Shown: piece by piece, positions 3,113 to 64,000 of the stretch
How the letters are laid out: each line of letters opens with the position of its first letter
How positions within the stretch are numbered: the first letter of the stretch is position 1
DNA from: a virus
Taxonomy: Duplodnaviria > Caudoviricetes
DNA: 64,000 nt
Virus record (IMG/VR): IMGVR_UViG_2595698517_000001
Location: 92,177 to 156,176 of that record
Direction: 5' to 3' (one strand)
Translations under genes and position numbers: made by a program
Notes under the pieces: generated by a model
The model's input: the letters and a program-made list of their open reading frames with translations, nothing else
Told to the model about the DNA's origin: nothing
The model's database searches: none

Positions 3113-4217
3113 AGTCGTCTTTCCCGTCTGAGTGCTTGTAGTTGATTGCGTTACCTTGTAAGAAGTCTGCTTTAGGTGCAATCGCTCCCTCAGTTTGTTT
3201 CTTACTTCCGTAGTTTACAATCCATTTTGCTTTTAGTTCTCCATTTTCAGGGAATGGTTCTTGTAATCCTGCATTACGACAAATTAAATTAGCTAAGTAC
3301 TCTGTGTAGTCGTGGTATTCTTTAATAGAAAGCGTGTCAATATCACGGTATAACCAGGCAGACCATTCTTTCTCTAGCTGTACAGCTTCTCGTACAAAGT
3401 TCATAGAGTATTCCATATTCTCTTTTGTATTAAGCTGTGGGTTCTCTGCCATTAGAATTTGAATGATTAACCCGAATATTTCAGAGTGTTGGTTCTCGTC
3501 CGCTTTAATTAGGTTAATCATATTGTTTGATTCGAGCATTTTATTGTCACGAGCTAGTGAGTGGAAGTAAGCAAACCCACCTGAGAAGTATTCCCCTTCT
3601 AGGATTTGATAAGCTAGTAGACCTTCATAAAGCGCTTGTAGCGTTTCATCGTCCATTTCTACAACACCTGTAGCTCTTCGTTTAATGAAATATTCTGTAA
3701 GCGATACAATCATTTTGTCTAGCTTTTCAATGATGAAGTCGTTACGTTTCTTTAGTAACGGTAGCTCTCTTACTTCATTAAACGCACGTTCCTTTTCTGC
3801 GGCACCTAAAACTGTAGATGTCATATGCTCATAGGATACGTTATGAGTTGTTTCGAATGATGCAATGATAGTTAGCAATGTTCGTAATGACGGATCAGAT
3901 GTAGCCATGAATAAATATGTAACAACATCACTAGCCATCGAATCTAACCAGTTTAATGCACCCGAGTTATACTGATAAGCTAACTTCTCAGCATCAGTTA
4001 GTGTCTGATATTGTTCGATGTCTTTTCCCATCTGTAATTCTTCAGGAACCCAGTACTCACCAAATAGTGATTTTTGCCAGTCCAGGAATACAGGATACTT
4101 AACATCGTCCCAACTTCGAATGCCACTAGCCTTCCCACCAAAAATCTTAGTAGGAAGGTTCGGCTGCTCTGCATCGTAGATACGGAAAGGTCGTGCTTCA
4201 AATGAATTATTAAACAT
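3102..4217 (-). CDS. nrdB: Ribonucleotide reductase beta subunit
   Basis: Complete di-metal ligand set (WLDS, ETTH, LEG, DENQH) with the radical Tyr after the first ExxH. Confidence 0.95.
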   Translation of the reverse strand: MFNNSFEARPFRIYDAEQPNLPTKIFGGKASGIRSWDDVKYPVFLDWQKSLFGEYWVPEELQMGKDIEQYQTLTDAEKLAYQYNSGALNWLDSMASDVVTYLFMATSDPSLRTLLTIIASFETTHNVSYEHMTSTVLGAAEKERAFNEVRELPLLKKRNDFIIEKLDKMIVSLTEYFIKRRATGVVEMDDETLQALYEGLLAYQILEGEYFSGGFAYFHSLARDNKMLESNNMINLIKADENQHSEIFGLIIQILMAENPQLNTKENMEYSMNFVREAVQLEKEWSAWLYRDIDTLSIKEYHDYTEYLANLICRNAGLQEPFPENGELKAKWIVNYGSKKQTEGAIAPKADFLQGNAINYKHSDGKDDFDL

Positions 4218-29512: not shown

Positions 29513-32203
29513 TTATGCTAGTTTACTGTTTACTTTTTGTTTTAGTTCTTGTAACTCTGCGTAAACCTCTTGTAGACCTTTCCACGATAATGTTGCCATA
29601 CCGTAAGAGTCTACCGTATCTGCTCCTGAGATAAGTTCAGGTGCTTCCTCTGCAATAAGTCCAATCTTAACTTGTTGGCTTGCGTCCCCTTTATATGTGT
29701 AAGTCTTTGCTACCGAAGAGTTGATAATTTCCATTGCACTGCCTTTAAATACCTCGATGTTATCTTTGTACTCTCTAGAAGATGCGTTGTTCAGGTTCCC
29801 TGCAAGTTCACACCAATTTGTATTGCTTGAGTTTCTTGCTTCCAATCTACCTTGGAAGTTGTTGTAGTTAACGTACCATTTAAGGATACCGCCATCACTA
29901 CCAAATTGGATACATCTTCCAGAGTAGTTCTCGTGTGTGAAGAATGATAAAAACTTACGGTCGTCATGATAGAAGTCATGACCATTGACGTGCGAACGGT
30001 ACTCGTTGGGTTGAGTTGAACCTTTACCAATACCGAATAATAGTCTAGCCCTATTATCCGAATCTTTAAGCGACCATGTATTACCGCTACCTGCATCGGG
30101 TTGACCTTTGATATTTCCAAATACATCAAAGTAAACTCCACCACTGTTTTGTGAATAGAAATCTCCACCGAATCTAAGGTTTCCTGTATTCGGAAACTGA
30201 TAGAAGATGTTTTGGTTGTTCATTCTCATTGCGTAGTCTAGTACACCGAATGTACTATAATCGGCAGCATTTGTAGACCCTGCTGTTTTACCTGGTCTTA
30301 GGAAGTTTAACCCTTGACCTGTAGAACTTACTGGACTACTGAAGTAGATACAGTTAACTGCCATGAAGTCTCCACCGTTGGCGTGTAAGCTCCACTTACC
30401 TTGTGCGATCCACTGGTTAGCCTTTAATTTAAGTATACCATCAACATCCAAGTCCCCTGCTATTTCGAGCCCGTTTGCTGCACTCGTAGGGAACTTATTG
30501 ACACCTAAAGTCTTCTTCACTGTATCGATAAAGAAGATTGGCGTACCGACTGCTACAGTTCTAGTTGCTGTTACAGTAGACCCTACTTTGTCCGTAACCG
30601 TAATTAGTACGTCCCATGCAATAGTGTTATCCAGGTTTACTGTAACATTTGTTGCTGTAAAGTTAGGGAACCCTGTAACTGTAAAGTTCGCTGCTGTATT
30701 GTAAGTACCACCTACCTGTCTGTATTGATATTTAGCTGAAGTAATTGCGTTCTTATTCACTCCACCGATAGTCAATGGTGACGCAGAGCCGCTTAACTTT
30801 AGTGTTGTAGAGGTCTCAAAGTTATTTAAACGGTCTGCACTAGTTGCTAAAGTAGGTGGGGAATAAGCTAACATTAATATAACAGAAGATGCAGATGTTC
30901 TATTACCTCGGCTGTCAATTGCTGTAACTGTTATTGTAGCGTTAGAAGCCGCATCTACGGTACCAAAGTTAAGTGTAAGGTCTGTTGTAGCATAGTTAAT
31001 AGACTGGGTTGCCCCGTTCACTGCTACCTCATATCGAACCATTGTAGCGCTGTTCTGTGCTACAGCTTTAGCAGTCGCAGGAATCTTAACTTGCAACGTA
31101 GATTTATTCTGTACCAGGTACTGGTTATTCCCTGTAAGAGTAGTCGTTGTAGCATTTGTATCTAAATAAGTAAATCCTCCTGTGTATGTAGGGTTACTAT
31201 TTACAACCCGCAGGTTAACTTTCTTATTCTGATCCTTCGGCAAACCATCGTTAATCTCTACCCCGTTATACTTCGTACTTGCCCAAACGTTAGCTTGTTT
31301 CACATTGTCGTTTGGTGTTTGTTGATACATCTTAGCTATGTCTGCATCATCAAAGGTCATTGTGAACGTTTTCCCTACTCCTGTAGAGAATGTTTTTGTA
31401 AAGCTACCGAATGTAAATACTAAAGAATAAGCGAACTCTGAGTAGTAATAATCCAAGGTTACAGGTACGTTTTTCGTTCCAATATCGAAATCAGACAGCA
31501 CAGGTGTAGCAGGTGTGGCACCATATACAGTTCCCCACTTCTCTGTCTCTCCGATTACACTACCATTGTACCATGTCTGTACCTTAATCTTTACAGGTCG
31601 GTTCTCGTAACCGCCTATAGCTTGATACAAAATGGTTGTTTCTTCTTTAGTGAAGTAGAATGTTACGTTATCCCCTACATTACCTCTCCAAGCAATCGCT
31701 GCCATACTGTTATCAGGCTTCTGCACTTCTACTGTAACGATATGGTCAAAAGCTGTTGAAGCACGGTTAATCGAAATAGGTAGAGGTTCGATCGCTGCTG
31801 TCCAACTAATATTAGACGACACCGTACTTGCTCGTGGGATACGATCCAAGTCTACGTATACTACTGCATCGTTAATAGAGAATACATCCGTATAACCACT
31901 CGCACCAATACGTAAGTTTTTAGAACCGTCAGAGTTATGGTTTACTCTAAAGTTACCGCTAACTACTAATGTGTTAGAGTTGTATGTAAATGAGAATCCT
32001 GTTGTGTTTACTGCTTGTTGCCCGTCTACATATAACCCGAAGGTACCCGTACCATATGTTGTATACCCTGTGTTTGTACGAGAGAAACGCATCTCTACGT
32101 ATACGTCACTATAGTTCCCACCAGTGTTCGGGGTACTGCGCCAATTGACAGTACCCGCTACATATTTATTACTGGTAGAGACTCCAAATGAACCACTTGC
32201 CAT
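29513..32203 (-). CDS. Tail fibre/receptor-binding protein with C-terminal intramolecular chaperone (peptidase S74-like)
   Basis: SSREYKDNI...GLIAEE...coiled-coil C-terminus; N-terminus resembles siphoviral DUF859 proteins (LDRIPRAS). Confidence 0.8.
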   Translation of the reverse strand: MASGSFGVSTSNKYVAGTVNWRSTPNTGGNYSDVYVEMRFSRTNTGYTTYGTGTFGLYVDGQQAVNTTGFSFTYNSNTLVVSGNFRVNHNSDGSKNLRIGASGYTDVFSINDAVVYVDLDRIPRASTVSSNISWTAAIEPLPISINRASTAFDHIVTVEVQKPDNSMAAIAWRGNVGDNVTFYFTKEETTILYQAIGGYENRPVKIKVQTWYNGSVIGETEKWGTVYGATPATPVLSDFDIGTKNVPVTLDYYYSEFAYSLVFTFGSFTKTFSTGVGKTFTMTFDDADIAKMYQQTPNDNVKQANVWASTKYNGVEINDGLPKDQNKKVNLRVVNSNPTYTGGFTYLDTNATTTTLTGNNQYLVQNKSTLQVKIPATAKAVAQNSATMVRYEVAVNGATQSINYATTDLTLNFGTVDAASNATITVTAIDSRGNRTSASSVILMLAYSPPTLATSADRLNNFETSTTLKLSGSASPLTIGGVNKNAITSAKYQYRQVGGTYNTAANFTVTGFPNFTATNVTVNLDNTIAWDVLITVTDKVGSTVTATRTVAVGTPIFFIDTVKKTLGVNKFPTSAANGLEIAGDLDVDGILKLKANQWIAQGKWSLHANGGDFMAVNCIYFSSPVSSTGQGLNFLRPGKTAGSTNAADYSTFGVLDYAMRMNNQNIFYQFPNTGNLRFGGDFYSQNSGGVYFDVFGNIKGQPDAGSGNTWSLKDSDNRARLLFGIGKGSTQPNEYRSHVNGHDFYHDDRKFLSFFTHENYSGRCIQFGSDGGILKWYVNYNNFQGRLEARNSSNTNWCELAGNLNNASSREYKDNIEVFKGSAMEIINSSVAKTYTYKGDASQQVKIGLIAEEAPELISGADTVDSYGMATLSWKGLQEVYAELQELKQKVNSKLA

Positions 32204-62534: not shown

Positions 62535-62825
62535 CTACGTTTTGCATTCAACGGAGTCTCGATCAGCATACTCGAATACCTTTCGACTGTTCAGTACGTT
62601 CTCATAAGTATCTGTCACCGATTCTCCTCGTCTATTAACTAATGACACTTGGTTATCTTCGGTGAGGTCTACAATAAGCCGCTTCTCTCCGTCTACAACA
62701 GAGTAAACTAGCACATTCTTACCACCGATAGCCTTGTAATAGCTAATGACTTCTAGCCACGTATAGTTCTGATTTAGTAATTTCTTTGCTGTTTGCCATT
62801 TAGAATCTTCTCTGAATGAACTCAA
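62535..62825 (-). CDS. Conserved hypothetical protein upstream of portal
   Basis: 96-aa ORF, TTG start, late motif TCTTATATTA at 62847-62856. Confidence 0.75.
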   Translation of the reverse strand: MSSFREDSKWQTAKKLLNQNYTWLEVISYYKAIGGKNVLVYSVVDGEKRLIVDLTEDNQVSLVNRRGESVTDTYENVLNSRKVFEYADRDSVECKT

Positions 62826-62950
62826 AATAGGTCACGCCCTTAGGTATAATATAAGACTACATAGTCTAAACTTTGGAAATACGGAGTACGGAATGTGTAC
62901 TTTAATTATATCATAGACAGCTTTTAGGGGGTCTGCTAGAGGACACAACG

Positions 62951-62981
62951 AAAAAAAGCCCTTCGGCACAAAGGACTTTTT
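62951..62981 (-). terminator. Terminator closing the candidate ncRNA
   Basis: AGTCCTTT-loop-GAAGGGCT followed by a T-run on the minus strand. Confidence 0.75.
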
Positions 62982-62997
62982 AATGTATACTATGAAA

Positions 62998-63346
62998 TTT
63001 TGCTACCACATCAGCCACAAGGCAACTACGGAGACCACAAGTGAACTCTCGCAAACCTGGAACAGTGGATTTTATCGAACTTTATCGGGCTATACCTTCT
63101 TGGTAGTCTTTGCCCTCTTTGATCTGTTAACTATGACCTCTGATATATAAGAACTTTGAGTTTTAACCTTTAAGCTGTGAACTTTGAGCTTTTACCCAGT
63201 TGTATGTCTCTGTGTCCACCACTGAGACTATCATGTAAGTAAGCTCTTTCGGCTTAATATTTGGTTAGGATTTTATCCTACAAAGTTCATACTATATCGT
63301 CAGTATGTAACGCACTTGGTTTGTAGTTGTCGATGTAGCAGCAAAA
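62998..63346 (-). ncRNA. Candidate ~350-nt structured RNA with paired ends and a heptamer array
   Basis: 15-bp terminal helix UUUUGCUGCUACAUC/GAUGUGGUAGCAAAA with two G-U pairs valid only on the minus strand, further nested pairings, four internal hairpins, no ORF. Confidence 0.7.
63105..63192 (-). repeat. Degenerate 7-nt tandem array, consensus ANAGNTY
   Basis: AAAGCTC AAAGTTC ACAGCTT AAAGGTT AAAACTC AAAGTTC tt ATATATC AGAGGTC ATAGTTA ACAGATC AAAGAGG gc AAAGACT. Confidence 0.75.
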
Positions 63347-63376
63347 GGTTTCCCCCTCGTTAGAGGGGGTTATTCA

Positions 63377-64000
63377 CTAAGCTAATTCAAGCTCTGTCTT
63401 CGCATTGCTCTCAGAAAGAACAACGTCAACATCTAACTTGAACTTGGTGATGCGCTCTGTTAACTCATCGATCTCCTTACGAAGAGCTAATGGGTCAACT
63501 AAATGAGGTTCGTAACGTTTTTTCACGTTCTTAACGATACCGTTATGCTCCTCATCTGTTAGAGTACGATCATTAGGCTTGTCTTCCGCAAGACGTTTAT
63601 CAGTTTGCTGCTCTAAGTGCTGTACAGCGTAGTTATACGTGTTAACAACTTGAGAGTACTGATTACGTAAGTGCTGAAGAAGCGCTTCCTCGTGGATGAT
63701 CGAGTCTTTACGGTCAATTGCTTCAGCAACTGTCATCGTCTCAGTACCGATCGTTACAAGGGTTTCTGCATTTGACTTAATGATTGCAGCCTTGATTGCA
63801 TTTCTACGTTTGATTAAATCATTTGCCGATTGGTATTTAGCCTTGATTGTTTCTTCACACTCTTTTACAGAGTTGAATCCTTCAGGCTTACCATTATCAC
63901 CTACGTAAAGGGACATGAAAGTTTGATTCGTTGCCTTACGAATGCGGTCTCCTAAAGTCTTTAACTCCATTAAACCACGTTGTACTGACATCTTTTCCAT
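63377..64000 (-). CDS. DIP1984/septicolysin-like long coiled-coil protein
   Basis: IIKSNAETLV...MTVAEAIDRKD and VDPLALRKEIDEL...LSESNAKTEL match the family pattern from memory. The ATG is at the window edge, so the RBS is not visible. Confidence 0.65.
   Translation of the reverse strand: MEKMSVQRGLMELKTLGDRIRKATNQTFMSLYVGDNGKPEGFNSVKECEETIKAKYQSANDLIKRRNAIKAAIIKSNAETLVTIGTETMTVAEAIDRKDSIIHEEALLQHLRNQYSQVVNTYNYAVQHLEQQTDKRLAEDKPNDRTLTDEEHNGIVKNVKKRYEPHLVDPLALRKEIDELTERITKFKLDVDVVLSESNAKTELELA

What the first reader, a model, noticed from the sequence alone, without database searches (positions are those of the whole stretch)
62951..64000. Candidate new ribonucleoprotein system: DIP1984-like coiled-coil protein plus a ~350-nt end-paired RNA
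Seen: after the stop at 63377 comes a GC hairpin (CCCCCTC/GAGGGGG, 63352-63369), then an ORF-free 350-nt segment, then a terminator. On the minus strand the two ends pair over 15 bp (63332-63346 with 62998-63012) with two G-U pairs that would be A-C mismatches on the other strand, which points to RNA rather than a DNA inverted repeat. Pairing continues inward (CAACUAC/GUAGUUG, CAAGUG/CACUUG). Internal hairpins: CAUACU/AGUAUG, UAGGAU-AAA-AUCCUA, UAAGC-cGAAAg-a-GCUUA, GUCUC/GAGAC. I do not recognise it as tRNA, tmRNA, intron, CRISPR or riboswitch. Known: DIP1984-like proteins are helical proteins without an established function. Inference: the RNA is co-transcribed with and bound by the protein, forming a two-part accessory cassette upstream of portal, possibly a toxin/RNA-antitoxin pair, an RNA-scaffolded oligomer, or an anti-defence or superinfection module.
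Basis: partly seen in the sequence, partly recalled or inferred. Interest (0 to 1): 0.92.

Follow-up and report, generated by a model that had tools for sequence, protein, structure and literature searches.

The report
Unrecognised knotted RNA with partner protein
A roughly 345-base, heavily knotted RNA carrying a 7-base repeat array sits directly behind one small helical protein gene in this Bacillus phage, in T5-like and other large phages and in many bacterial chromosomes, and the pair matches no catalogued RNA family, so it is probably an undescribed RNA-protein particle.

Summary
Window 63000-63344 (minus strand) encodes a structured RNA. It has a closing helix P1, three further helices (Px, P3, P4), two long-range pseudoknots (P2, PK2), an H-type pseudoknot (PK1) and a 7-nt periodic array (consensus A-A-a-G-n-U-y), and it ends at an intrinsic terminator.

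- **Catalogues:** No Rfam 15 family matches it here or in 17 homologous loci.
- **Structure:** Compensatory changes support every helix tested.
- **Linkage to the protein:** The RNA always follows the 207-aa gene (PHROG 1491, fold like PDB 3KDQ) on the same strand. My 3'-domain covariance model finds it behind 61 of 80 bacterial and 64 of 80 viral-contig homologues.
- **Co-occurrence:** Among 91 Bacillaceae genomes, 16 have both parts side by side, 74 have neither, and 1 keeps a 5'-truncated RNA relic. Three phages of the window's own genus lack both parts.
- **Function:** That the protein binds the RNA is inferred, not shown. What the pair does is unknown.
- **Earlier notes:** The scan's first-stage readers had noted the heptamer array in this window and the same pair in another phage genome.

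The parts
63377..64000 (-). Gene for the 207-aa helical partner protein (PHROG 1491; fold like PDB 3KDQ)
   Evidence: ORF. PHROG 1491 E 5.3e-76. AF2 model pLDDT 93.3. 3kdq_A Z 11.3. 712 phage records encode a homologue.
63352..63369 (-). GC hairpin between the stop codon and the RNA, specific to Bastillevirinae
   Evidence: Sequence. Kept with covariation in 16 Bastillevirinae (columns 18-33). Absent in bacterial loci, where P1 starts 9-20 nt after the stop. Not called a terminator.
63333..63344 (-). P1 5' strand (closing helix), followed by the conserved CGAC/CGAA junction at 63329-63332
   Evidence: Pairs with 63000-63011. All 12 pairs show compensatory changes and 97.5% of cells pair.
63323..63328 (-). 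P2 5' strand
   Evidence: Pairs with 63024-63029. Best 6-mer complementarity is 5.75 of 6 within a sequence and 4.63 between sequences, 0 of 1000 permutations as high. All 6 pairs compensatory.
63313..63318 (-). PK2 5' strand ('link'), which pairs with the loop of hairpin P4
   Evidence: Pairs with 63039-63044. 5.94 of 6 within a sequence and 5.14 between, 0 of 1000 permutations. All 6 pairs compensatory.
63288..63312 (-). PK1, an H-type pseudoknot (S1 CGU/ACG; S2 CAUACUG/UAGUAUG)
   Evidence: Pseudoknot score of 10 or more in 54 of 68 sequences against 154 of 1360 shuffles. 24 distinct S1 and 35 distinct S2 pairings.
63193..63287 (-).
   Evidence: Conserved only within Bastillevirinae. Length and content differ among clades. 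It holds a tRNA-Gln gene in locus L072.
63105..63192 (-). 7-nt periodic array (A-A-a-G-n-U-y), with a first block in exact register, a short break, then a second block
   Evidence: Identity is 0.457 at lag 7, 0.423 at lag 14 and 0.383 at lag 21, against about 0.28 shuffled. Seven units are in register across 40 sequences, with position 6 U in 96% and position 1 A in 85%.
63069..63083 (-). Conserved single-stranded junction AAAGUUCGAUAAAAU leading into Px
   Evidence: Nearly invariant in A3/A4. It is the start of the covariance-model match 63083-63000, E 5.5e-13.
63064..63068 (-). Px 5' strand
   Evidence: Pairs with 63015-63019. 98.9-99.1% of cells pair and 4 of 5 pairs are compensatory.
63055..63058 (-). 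P3 5' strand
   Evidence: Pairs with 63020-63023. 79.6% of cells pair and 3 of 4 pairs are compensatory. 3.75 of 4 within a sequence and 3.08 between.
63031..63051 (-). P4 hairpin (stem 63048-63051 with 63031-63034). Its loop carries the PK2 3' strand at 63039-63044.
   Evidence: All 5 model pairs are compensatory and 74.9-77.7% of cells pair.
63024..63029 (-). P2 3' strand. It lies between P4 and P3 3', so P2 crosses Px and P3.
63015..63023 (-). P3 3' strand (63020-63023) and Px 3' strand (63015-63019)
63000..63014 (-). Conserved CUG linker (63012-63014) and P1 3' strand (63000-63011)
   Evidence: The G and C of GCUG are invariant in 40 sequences. P1 counts.
62953..62981 (-). Intrinsic terminator that ends the unit
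   Evidence: The same terminator (47 nt, 100% identical) directly follows tRNA-Met in TsarBomba-type phages that lack the cassette.

Best explanation
Window 63000-64000 (minus strand) is a self-contained two-gene module. It consists of a 207-aa helical protein with a DIP1984/3KDQ-like fold and, directly downstream on the same transcript, a ~345-nt non-coding RNA of a class that is not in Rfam.

I propose that the two products form a ribonucleoprotein. The knotted core (P1, P2, Px, P3, P4, PK1, PK2 and three near-invariant junction strands) gives a fixed, nuclease-resistant fold and probably the specific docking site. The single-stranded 7-nt array (about 7 + 4-5 units of A-A-a-G-n-U-y) acts as a periodic track on which copies of the protein bind, one per unit. 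TRAP and HutP read evenly spaced NAG triplets in a similar way.

In the phage the module is the last unit of the tRNA operon, so the particle would be made together with the phage tRNAs. I think it most likely acts on RNA metabolism or translation, but that is a guess.

**Shown:** the RNA-level conserved structure; the periodic array; strict adjacency, shared orientation and co-loss with the protein; absence from catalogues.

**Inferred:** co-transcription, direct binding, one protein per heptamer, and the cellular role.
For: **The structure is conserved by compensatory change.**
- 3' domain, 38 sequences, MAFFT alignment: 84.8% of cells pair, against 60.6% in shuffles and 32-47% with slid partners. 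141 cells changed on both sides against 45.9. 0 of 500 shuffles reach this.
- An independent viral set gives 84.7% against 59.5%, and 156 cells against 52.7.
- P1, P2, PK2 and Px on full-length RNAs: 86.3% against 60.8%, 289 cells against 89, and 28 of 29 pairs compensatory.
- P2, P3 and PK2 pass permutation tests although they played no part in choosing the sequences.
- PK1 is supported.

**The structure is strand-specific:** detector hits in 68 of 100 loci against 3 of 100 on the reverse complement.

**The periodicity is conserved**.

**The RNA is linked to the protein.**
- Model R1 hits once, on the + strand, just after the protein gene in 61 of 80 bacterial loci. 29 of those 61 were seed sequences.
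- Of the 19 loci it missed, 14 still show the AAAU-Px...Px'-CWG anchor with 5 of 5 Px pairs.
- R1 hits 64 of 80 viral-contig loci; one of the 80 is cut off at the gene.
- Each of 4 whole genomes has exactly one hit, beside the protein.
- In 91 genomes of one family: 16 adjacent pairs, 0 protein-only, 74 neither, and 1 RNA-only that is a 5'-deleted relic.
- TsarBomba, McCartney and 0524phi7-1 lack gene and RNA together, while the tRNA-Met gene and the terminator stay in place.
- Distant homologues (Jenst, phage G, DT57C/T5.085, phiPsa374, pVp-1) all have an unannotated 260-520-nt gap after the gene, with the same motifs.

**No other neighbour is conserved in bacteria**.

**Conserved protein residues:** R66, K70, N77, K98 and N199 fall next to the short strands of the model.

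**Expression:** contigs from RNA libraries of three studies cover the homologous B. altitudinis-type locus. This is weak, because DNA carry-over is not excluded.
Against: - There is no direct evidence of binding, of a discrete transcript, or of its ends.
- By my reading of its sequence (not computed), the protein is not basic. It has no recognised RNA-binding domain.
- The minimum-free-energy z-score of a bacterial homologue is only -1.49. This is expected for a pseudoknotted RNA with an unstructured array, but it gives no support.
- R1 missed 19 of 80 bacterial and 16 of 80 viral loci at E <= 0.01, and it missed phiPsa374.
- The sequences are related to one another, so shuffle controls overstate significance.
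- Exact phasing of the repeats could be a legacy of tandem duplication rather than a protein ruler.
- Adjacency is also what one would expect if the RNA were only a cis-acting 3' UTR of the gene.
Confidence: 0.6

Rival explanations
1. Protein-independent RNA. The element works on its own, as a self-processing ribozyme or as a cis-acting 3' UTR that sets the stability or translation of the upstream mRNA. Alternatively its heptamers bind or titrate a host factor, for example the main decay endonuclease, rather than the neighbouring protein. It is linked to the gene only because it regulates that gene.
For: - The multi-pseudoknot core with near-invariant junction strands (CGAA, AUAAAAUC, GCUG) is as complex as known ribozymes.
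- P1 starts 9-20 nt after the stop codon in bacteria, so translation and RNA folding could be coupled.
- The protein has no known RNA-binding domain.
- As I recall it, the heptamer AAAG/NUY resembles published cleavage preferences of RNase E (RN/WUU) and RNase Y (after G). This was not tested here.
Against: - A 250-400-nt RNA with seven supported paired elements is far more than known 3' UTR stabilisers need.
- The exact 7-nt register over seven units is not needed for independent nuclease sites.
- Co-loss of gene and RNA fits this rival too, so it does not discriminate.
- No Rfam ribozyme model matches.
Confidence: 0.2
2. A type III-like toxin-antitoxin or abortive-infection pair. The helical protein is harmful on its own, perhaps at the membrane as its 'septicolysin' label suggests, and the repeat RNA neutralises it by binding. 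Phages carry the pair for addiction, superinfection exclusion or counter-defence.
For: - It is a self-contained two-part module, flanked by terminators, patchily distributed and set among unrelated genes.
- The RNA combines repeats with pseudoknots, as type III antitoxins do (I saw only the abstracts of PMC4627078 and PMC5772629 in the listing).
- Weak helical-bundle similarity to IpaB and Xax/Yax-type proteins: Z 7.6 and Foldseek probability 0.12-0.16.
Against: - No ToxN/AbiQ-like or any PADLOC defence model matches, and Pfam gives nothing.
- The repeats are 7 nt and lie downstream of the gene. They are not 34-45-nt units upstream of it with a terminator in between.
- The module is kept at one locus across the B. 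pumilus group, which is more stable than typical toxin-antitoxin loci.
- The structural matches to pore formers are within the noise for helical proteins, as the tool's own note says.
Confidence: 0.15
3. A DNA-level element: a replication origin or packaging site with iterons and an inverted repeat, next to its initiator-like protein.
For: Direct repeats next to a small protein gene and close to the portal gene. The plus strand also folds better than its shuffles (z -3.35).
Against: - The structure is strand-specific: 68 of 100 loci against 3 of 100 on the reverse complement.
- There are many G-U pairs: 118 G-U against 6 A-C in P1+Px, although the selection criterion favoured G-U.
- Pseudoknots covary.
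- The unit ends in an intrinsic terminator.
- The same element sits in bacterial chromosomes far from any origin.
- A 7-bp period does not fit the DNA helical repeat.
Confidence: 0.03

Closest known systems
TRAP / trp leader and HutP / hut mRNA of Bacillus (protein rings that read evenly spaced NAG triplets)
   Same: A run of short, evenly spaced purine-G motifs in single-stranded RNA. HutP's UAG-N4 spacing, as I recall it, also gives a 7-nt period. There are about 11-12 units here, and TRAP has 11 sites.
   Different: The partner protein here is an elongated helical protein, not a beta-rich or alpha/beta ring. The array is embedded in a large knotted RNA encoded next to the protein gene, not in a target mRNA leader. 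Binding is not shown.
Type III toxin-antitoxin systems (ToxIN, CptIN, TenpIN)
   Same: A protein gene and a repeat-containing, pseudoknotted RNA in one small transcription unit. Found in bacteria and on mobile elements or phages.
   Different: No ToxN-like nuclease is present. The repeat unit is 7 nt, not about 36 nt. The RNA lies downstream of the gene, not upstream. A large non-repetitive core is present.
Large orphan structured RNAs of bacteria and phages (GOLLD, ROOL, OLE, raiA; skipping-rope as a phage-associated small one)
   Same: A large, ornate, covariation-supported RNA of unknown function. GOLLD and ROOL are also phage-linked and lie near tRNA genes (recalled). A skipping-rope RNA sits beside this module in two loci.
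   Different: None of their Rfam models matches. This RNA has an obligate neighbouring protein gene and a 7-nt array.
DIP1984 family / PDB 3KDQ (Corynebacterium diphtheriae protein of unknown function; sometimes annotated 'septicolysin')
   Same: Best structural match of the partner protein: Z 11.3, 150 of 152 residues, 20% identity. Foldseek top hit.
   Different: The protein falls below the family threshold (14.6 bits against 70) and is about 55 residues longer. 3KDQ has no known function, so it explains nothing. I did not test whether true DIP1984 genes also have a downstream RNA.

Membership tests
Any Rfam 15 family (4227 models) | Covariance-model score at or above the gathering threshold | tested here: not met
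   0 matches in the whole window. Only chance-level hits at E 5.5 and 6.8 in 62800-63500. No match over the RNA in 17 homologous loci.
tRNA / tmRNA | ARAGORN detection of a cloverleaf, or of a tRNA-like domain plus tag | tested here: not met
   0 genes in the window.
Type III toxin-antitoxin (ToxIN-like) | Toxin belongs to a ToxN/AbiQ/CptN/TenpN endoribonuclease family | tested here: not met
   No Pfam family above threshold. No PADLOC model at E <= 1 for 4 family members. The model is helical.
Type III toxin-antitoxin (ToxIN-like) | Antitoxin is a tandem array of ~34-45-nt units upstream of the toxin gene, separated from it by a terminator | tested here: not met
   The units are 7 nt, lie downstream of the gene, and sit inside a larger non-repetitive RNA.
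Type III toxin-antitoxin (ToxIN-like) | Protein is toxic and the RNA neutralises it | not testable with these tools
   Needs expression experiments.
DIP1984 family (NCBIfam NF038048) | HMM score at or above the curated cut-off (70 bits) | tested here: not met
   14.6 bits, E 0.028 for the window protein. 15.1 bits for P0020. No hit for two other homologues.
DIP1984 family (NCBIfam NF038048) | Same fold as PDB 3KDQ | tested here: met
   VIA Z 11.3, rmsd 8.1, 150 of 152 residues aligned, next row 7.6. Foldseek E 2.5e-3, probability 1.00.
PHROG 1491 ('tail fiber protein') | Profile match | tested here: met
   E 5.3e-76 over residues 1-206.
PHROG 1491 ('tail fiber protein') | Acts as a tail fibre | tested here: inconclusive
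   Nothing supports the label. The gene lies in the tRNA operon, it is missing from three phages of the same genus, and homologues sit among ordinary chromosomal genes. Virion proteomics was not available.
TRAP/HutP-type periodic RNA recognition | Evenly spaced NAG-type motifs in single-stranded RNA | tested here: met
   7-nt period. Position 4 is G in 69%, position 1 is A in 85% and position 6 is U in 96% over seven units.
TRAP/HutP-type periodic RNA recognition | Partner protein has the TRAP or HutP fold and forms a ring | tested here: inconclusive
   The model is a helical hairpin bundle with a small sheet, and neither family is listed among the structural matches. The oligomeric state could not be predicted.

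The most novel reading that the evidence does not exclude
This is a previously unrecognised, widespread class of ribonucleoprotein. A multi-pseudoknot RNA core nucleates a defined-length protein oligomer along a 7-nt 'ruler' array, and the RNA is encoded with its protein as a mobile two-gene unit. Large lytic phages (T5-like, Bastillevirinae, Otagovirus, Vibrio and jumbo phages) place it in or beside their tRNA clusters and use it to reprogramme host RNA decay or translation. Bacilli and Clostridia keep chromosomal copies.
Probability: 0.4. Interest if true: 0.92.

Novelty: categorically new. Interest (0 to 1): 0.87.

Why it matters
If it holds, this adds a new large structured RNA class with an obligate protein partner.

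- It occurs in model phages such as the T5 group (the T5.085 homologue) and in common Bacillus, Lysinibacillus, Brevibacillus, Paenibacillus and Clostridia genomes, yet it is unannotated in almost all records seen here.
- It gives a function-linked handle on two orphan entities: the PHROG 1491 proteins now labelled 'tail fiber protein', and the DIP1984/3KDQ fold.
- It offers a natural example of an RNA with a periodic track that could set the size of a protein assembly.
- It is directly testable, because natural deletion variants exist within one phage genus, and genetic systems exist for T5 and for Bacillus.
- The recurrent position at tRNA clusters may tie it to the current question of why phages carry tRNA arrays.

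Tried and rejected
**Catalogue and family searches that gave nothing**
- Rfam: nothing at gathering score. At E <= 10 only SNORA41 and CRISPR-DR10, both chance-level.
- ARAGORN: no tRNA or tmRNA in the window.
- PDB by sequence: only 'Hdf' at E 0.18, ignored.
- Pfam: Mitofilin and DAAD, both below threshold, ignored.
- PADLOC: none.
- ESM Atlas: only hypothetical, mostly viral clusters. One 171-aa neighbouring cluster carries DUF6847 on 16% of its members.

**Folding energy**
- For the bacterial homologue L100 the z-score is -1.49, not significant. I therefore rest on covariation, not energy.
- RNAalifold's purely nested model of the 16 Bastillevirinae captured P1, P2 and PK2 but missed Px, P3, P4 and PK1.

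**RNA-seq**
- All four runs laid were contigs, so no ends, strand or level can be read.
- In run X5 the contig over 3498-3891 has word depth 163, against 5.8 for the contig over 2948-3468. In X7 the figures are 19.7 against 6.5. By the tool's own caveat such depths cannot rank parts of a gene, and both runs come from one study, so I draw nothing from them.
- Parts without cover mean nothing.

**Ideas considered and not tested**
- Heptamers as mimics of 7-nt anticodon loops.
- Heptamers as RNase E/Y site decoys (consensus recalled).
- Heptamers as Shine-Dalgarno-like sponges; only AAAGG is shared.

**Other rejected readings**
- The 55-aa antisense ORF at 62983-63150 has no support.

**Literature**
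- 'DIP1984' found 1 paper, and its title is on Acinetobacter baumannii genomic surveillance, not on this protein.
- 'T5.085' found 0. 'DUF6847' found 0.
- 'septicolysin' found 34; the 15 listed look, by title and abstract start, like genome reports.
- Broader searches listed nothing on this RNA.
- One search was badly framed and useless.
- PMC11879866 (passages only) does not mention the T5 gene in its main text.
- Supplements were closed and might hold T5 gene-fitness data.
- Subscription journals are not covered, so 'not in print' means only these searches.

Full report
**What the window is.** The window is the last 64 kb of a Bacillus cereus-group myophage of the PBC6/BC01 type (Herelleviridae, Bastillevirinae, Tsarbombavirus). 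The 426 nt behind the 207-aa gene are 100% identical to both of those records. Genes here run on the minus strand. The 207-aa ORF (63377-64000) starts at the last base of the window and of the genome record. The record's first 2.8 kb carry 18 tRNA genes on the same strand, ending with tRNA-Met at 37-109. If the arbitrary record ends are joined, the order is tRNA array, 207-aa gene, non-coding stretch, 96-aa gene, portal. Sixteen related phages show the same order.

**Checking the observation.**
- The minus strand of 62951-63376 folds to -122.6 kcal/mol (z -5.05). The plus strand reaches -114.9 (z -3.35).
- A minus-strand intrinsic terminator lies at 62981-62953.
- Rfam 15 has no match at gathering score anywhere in the window, and only chance-level hits at E <= 10.
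- ARAGORN finds no tRNA or tmRNA.

**Relatives within Bacillus phages.** blastn finds the stretch in 33 phage records: 32 are named Bacillus phages and 1 is named a Xanthomonas phage. Identity is 70-100%, and in nearly all records the stretch is unannotated. An alignment of 16 of them keeps the closing helix in 16 of 16, with compensatory changes and many U-G pairs. The key contrast is that TsarBomba, McCartney and 0524phi7-1, phages of the window's own genus, lack both the 207-aa gene and the RNA. In them tRNA-Met is followed directly by the same terminator. Gene and RNA therefore behave as one insertion/deletion unit.

**The pair is far wider than Bacillus phages.**
- tblastn finds the protein in 712 of 50,697 phage records, including T5-like, Vibrio, Pseudomonas (Otagovirus), Klebsiella, Erwinia and jumbo phages.
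- In five distant examples the gene is followed by an unannotated gap of about 260-520 nt: Brevibacillus phage Jenst, Bacillus phage G, the E. coli T5-like phage DT57C (homologue of T5.085), phiPsa374 and Vibrio phage pVp-1.
- All five gaps show runs of AAAG/AAG-type 7-mers, and all but pVp-1 end in a UAGCAA-like 3' end (pVp-1 ends in a complementary CUAGA instead). The other shared motifs, such as AAAGUUCUUAU and UCGAUAAAAUC, appear in only some of them.
- The protein also occurs in bacterial genomes: Lysinibacillus, Brevibacillus, Paenibacillus, the B. pumilus and B. licheniformis groups, Clostridia, Sericytochromatia and others.
- In 80 such loci the next ORF of 60 aa or more typically starts 330-580 nt after the stop codon.
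- An nhmmer profile of the phage RNA hits 21 bacterial loci, and the Jenst phage locus, just after the stop codon on the same strand.

**Architecture.** I first read it by eye, then tested it. In RNA sense the order is:
- P1 5' strand
- CGAA junction
- P2 5' strand
- a short A-rich spacer
- 'link' (PK2 5' strand)
- PK1, an H-type pseudoknot
- a variable region of 0 to about 150 nt
- array block I, seven 7-mers in register
- UCUU break
- array block II
- the UCGAUAAAAUC junction
- Px 5' strand
- P3 5' strand
- P4 hairpin, whose loop pairs with 'link'
- P2 3' strand
- P3 3' strand
- Px 3' strand
- CUG
- P1 3' strand
- terminator

P2 and PK2 cross Px, P3 and P4, so the core is multiply pseudoknotted. 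Window coordinates are given under parts.

**Tests of the structure.**
- 3' domain, 38 diverse sequences, plain MAFFT alignment: 84.8% of cells pair, against 60.6% in shuffles and 32-47% with slid partners. 141 cells changed on both sides against 45.9. The covariation score is 0.648 against 0.205. 0 of 500 shuffles reach this. Px pairs in 98.9% of cells.
- Full-length alignment of 40 sequences, with P1, P2, PK2 and Px given as crossing brackets: 86.3% against 60.8%, 289 cells against 89, and 28 of 29 pairs compensatory. P1 has 12 of 12 pairs compensatory and 97.5% of cells paired. P2 (72.7%) and PK2 (65.8%) are lowered by one-column register shifts that MAFFT introduced between clades.
- Anchor-based, gap-free permutation tests on 68 distinct RNAs: P2 scores 5.75 of 6 within a sequence and 4.63 between sequences; PK2 5.94 against 5.14; P3 3.75 of 4 against 3.08. 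In each case 0 of 1000 permutations reach the observed value. These three helices played no part in selecting the sequences, whereas P1 and Px did.
- PK1: an H-type pseudoknot of 10 or more pairs in 54 of 68 sequences against 154 of 1360 shuffles, with 24 distinct S1 and 35 distinct S2 pairings.
- Strand: the P1+Px detector scores 16 or more in 68 of 100 loci, 3 of 100 on the reverse complement and 4 of 100 after shuffling.
- Caveat: the sequences are related by descent, so the shuffle controls are generous. The slid-partner controls and the permutations between sequences are the fairer ones.

**The array.** In the 100 nt before the junction, mean identity is 0.457 at lag 7, 0.423 at lag 14 and 0.383 at lag 21. 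Shuffled sequence gives about 0.28, and there are troughs at lags 3-4 and 10-11. In the 40-sequence alignment, seven units stand in exact register:

| Position | Base | Frequency |
|---|---|---|
| 1 | A | 85% |
| 2 | A | 73% |
| 3 | A | 55% |
| 4 | G | 69% |
| 5 | any | - |
| 6 | U | 96% |
| 7 | C or U | - |

. This confirms the scan's sibling note on the array (e1-6216357) and extends it to all clades.

**Linkage to the protein.** I built covariance model R1 from the 3' domain (84 positions, 14 pairs).
- It hits the window at 63083-63000 on the minus strand (E 5.5e-13).
- It hits 61 of 80 bacterial loci, each once, on the + strand just after the gene. It gives no hit in the three cassette-less phages. 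29 of the 61 were seed sequences.
- Of the 19 loci it missed, 14 show the AAAU-Px...Px'-CWG anchor with 5 of 5 Px pairs. Most are a divergent Lysinibacillus/Solibacillus subtype. Five are ambiguous.
- In 80 viral contigs fetched through the protein, R1 hits 64, again once each and just downstream. One further locus is cut off at the gene. Pair statistics on that set match the seed set.
- Four whole bacterial genomes have exactly one hit each, beside the protein.
- In all 91 genomes held for the family of the B. altitudinis-type genome, R1 hits 17 and the protein profile hits 16. Sixteen of these are adjacent pairs and 74 genomes have neither.
- The single RNA-only genome has lost the protein gene and the RNA's 5' half in one deletion, leaving a relic directly behind the neighbouring permease gene.
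- Bacterial neighbours are otherwise unrelated: methyltransferase, permeases, subtilase, AhpC, TetR, Rok, cbb3 oxidase and others.
- In L100, terminator-like hairpins lie on both sides of the unit. The scan called both on the opposite strand, so treating them as two-way terminators is my inference.

**The protein.**
- No Pfam family is above threshold, and none is precomputed for the 120 homologues listed out of 726.
- PHROG 1491, labelled 'tail fiber protein', matches at E 5.3e-76. I found nothing to support that label.
- NCBIfam DIP1984 scores 14.6 bits against a cut-off of 70. PADLOC gives nothing.
- The AlphaFold2 model built on 57 homologues has pLDDT 93.3. It shows long helical hairpins, with short strands at the N-terminus, at residues 81-90 and at the C-terminus.
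- The best structural match is PDB 3KDQ, a C. diphtheriae protein of unknown function: Foldseek E 2.5e-3 and VIA Z 11.3 against 7.6 for the next row.
- The invariant residues (R66, K70, N77, A92, A94, I95, D192, N199) flank those strands in the sequence. I read this as one conserved site at that end of the molecule, which is an inference.

**Expression.** For the B. altitudinis-type locus, contigs from RNA libraries of three studies cover gene and RNA. Contigs cannot give ends, strand or level, and DNA carry-over is possible. This shows compatibility and nothing more.

**How it most likely works.** The only partner conserved across phages of Gram-positive and Gram-negative hosts and across bacterial chromosomes is the RNA itself, and the two are lost together. 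That is the pattern seen for RNAs that act with the protein encoded beside them. I therefore put about 0.6 on a ribonucleoprotein in which the knotted core provides a stable, specific fold and the 7-nt array is a periodic binding track for multiple protein copies, analogous to TRAP or HutP reading spaced NAG triplets. The cellular role is open. The recurrent placement at phage tRNA clusters makes a role in RNA metabolism or translation my first guess. That placement is seen in Bastillevirinae, Jenst and pVp-1. In addition, tRNAs follow the RNA in two Clostridia loci, and a tRNA-Gln gene sits inside the variable region in L072. Rivals are a protein-independent RNA such as a ribozyme, a cis-acting 3' UTR or a host-factor decoy (0.2), a type III-like toxin-antitoxin pair (0.15), and a DNA-level element (0.03).

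**Comparison with what is known, and novelty.**
- It is not a member of any Rfam family, and it is not a tRNA, a tmRNA or a type III toxin-antitoxin system by the features I tested.
- The protein is DIP1984-like in fold only.
- My literature searches found no description. They cover only open-access papers and bioRxiv preprints, and supplements were closed.
- The scan itself holds an unchecked first-reader note of the same pair in a Caeruleovirus-type genome (e1-6232320).
- I rate it categorically new as a system and of high interest, with function unproven.

Noticed in passing
L072:3698-3774 (RNA spans L072:3626-3963): A tRNA-Gln gene (ARAGORN) lies inside the variable region of the RNA, between PK1 and the heptamer array. 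The variable region can therefore host a whole tRNA, which hints that RNase P/Z processing could split the RNA.
   Followed up: partly
L030:3125-3202 and 3660-3934; L035:4019-4147: Rfam skipping-rope RNAs lie directly beside the module in Brevibacillus phage Jenst (between the stop codon and P1) and in a Paenibacillus genome (after the RNA). A BsrG-family match follows in Jenst. The module tends to sit in clusters of RNA genes.
   Followed up: no
L062:4199-4278 (first copy at L062:3837-3920); L062:21-82 and 587-644: A second, weaker match to the 3'-domain model (E 2.2e-4) lies about 280 nt after the first. This may be a tandem second RNA or a partial duplicate. Two type-P5 twister ribozymes lie upstream on the same contig.
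   Followed up: no
L115 (G022:C4:199600-201700), RNA relic at about 1473-1631: In one B. pumilus-group genome a single deletion removed the protein gene and the 5' half of the RNA. The 3' half and the terminator remain directly after the amino-acid permease gene.
   Followed up: yes
window 62826-62950, compared with L003-L011: Most relatives carry a 279-aa gene between the RNA terminator and the 96-aa gene. It is variously annotated as hydrolase, glycosyl hydrolase or tail spike. The window phage, CM1, Deep Blue and Thurquoise lack it.
   Followed up: no
L032:5069-5624 (DT57C record 30992-31627): The T5-like phage DT57C has an annotated 'RNAX, stable RNA with unknown functions' about 2 kb downstream of the T5.085 homologue. 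The RNA described here, directly behind that gene, is not annotated.
   Followed up: no
L091 and L103, about 60-100 nt into the RNA: In two Sericytochromatia loci the position of PK1 holds a sequence with a tRNA T-arm-like GGUUCGAUUCC motif. ARAGORN calls no tRNA there.
   Followed up: partly
window 62983-63150 (+): A 55-aa ORF runs antisense to the RNA's 3' half. I found nothing to suggest it is a gene. In phage Kioshi a 49-aa CDS has been annotated inside the homologous RNA region (L011:1631-1780).
   Followed up: no
G000:C1:1-2780 (L196): The genome record is cut between tRNA-Met and the start codon of the 207-aa gene, so the record boundary splits one operon.
   Followed up: yes
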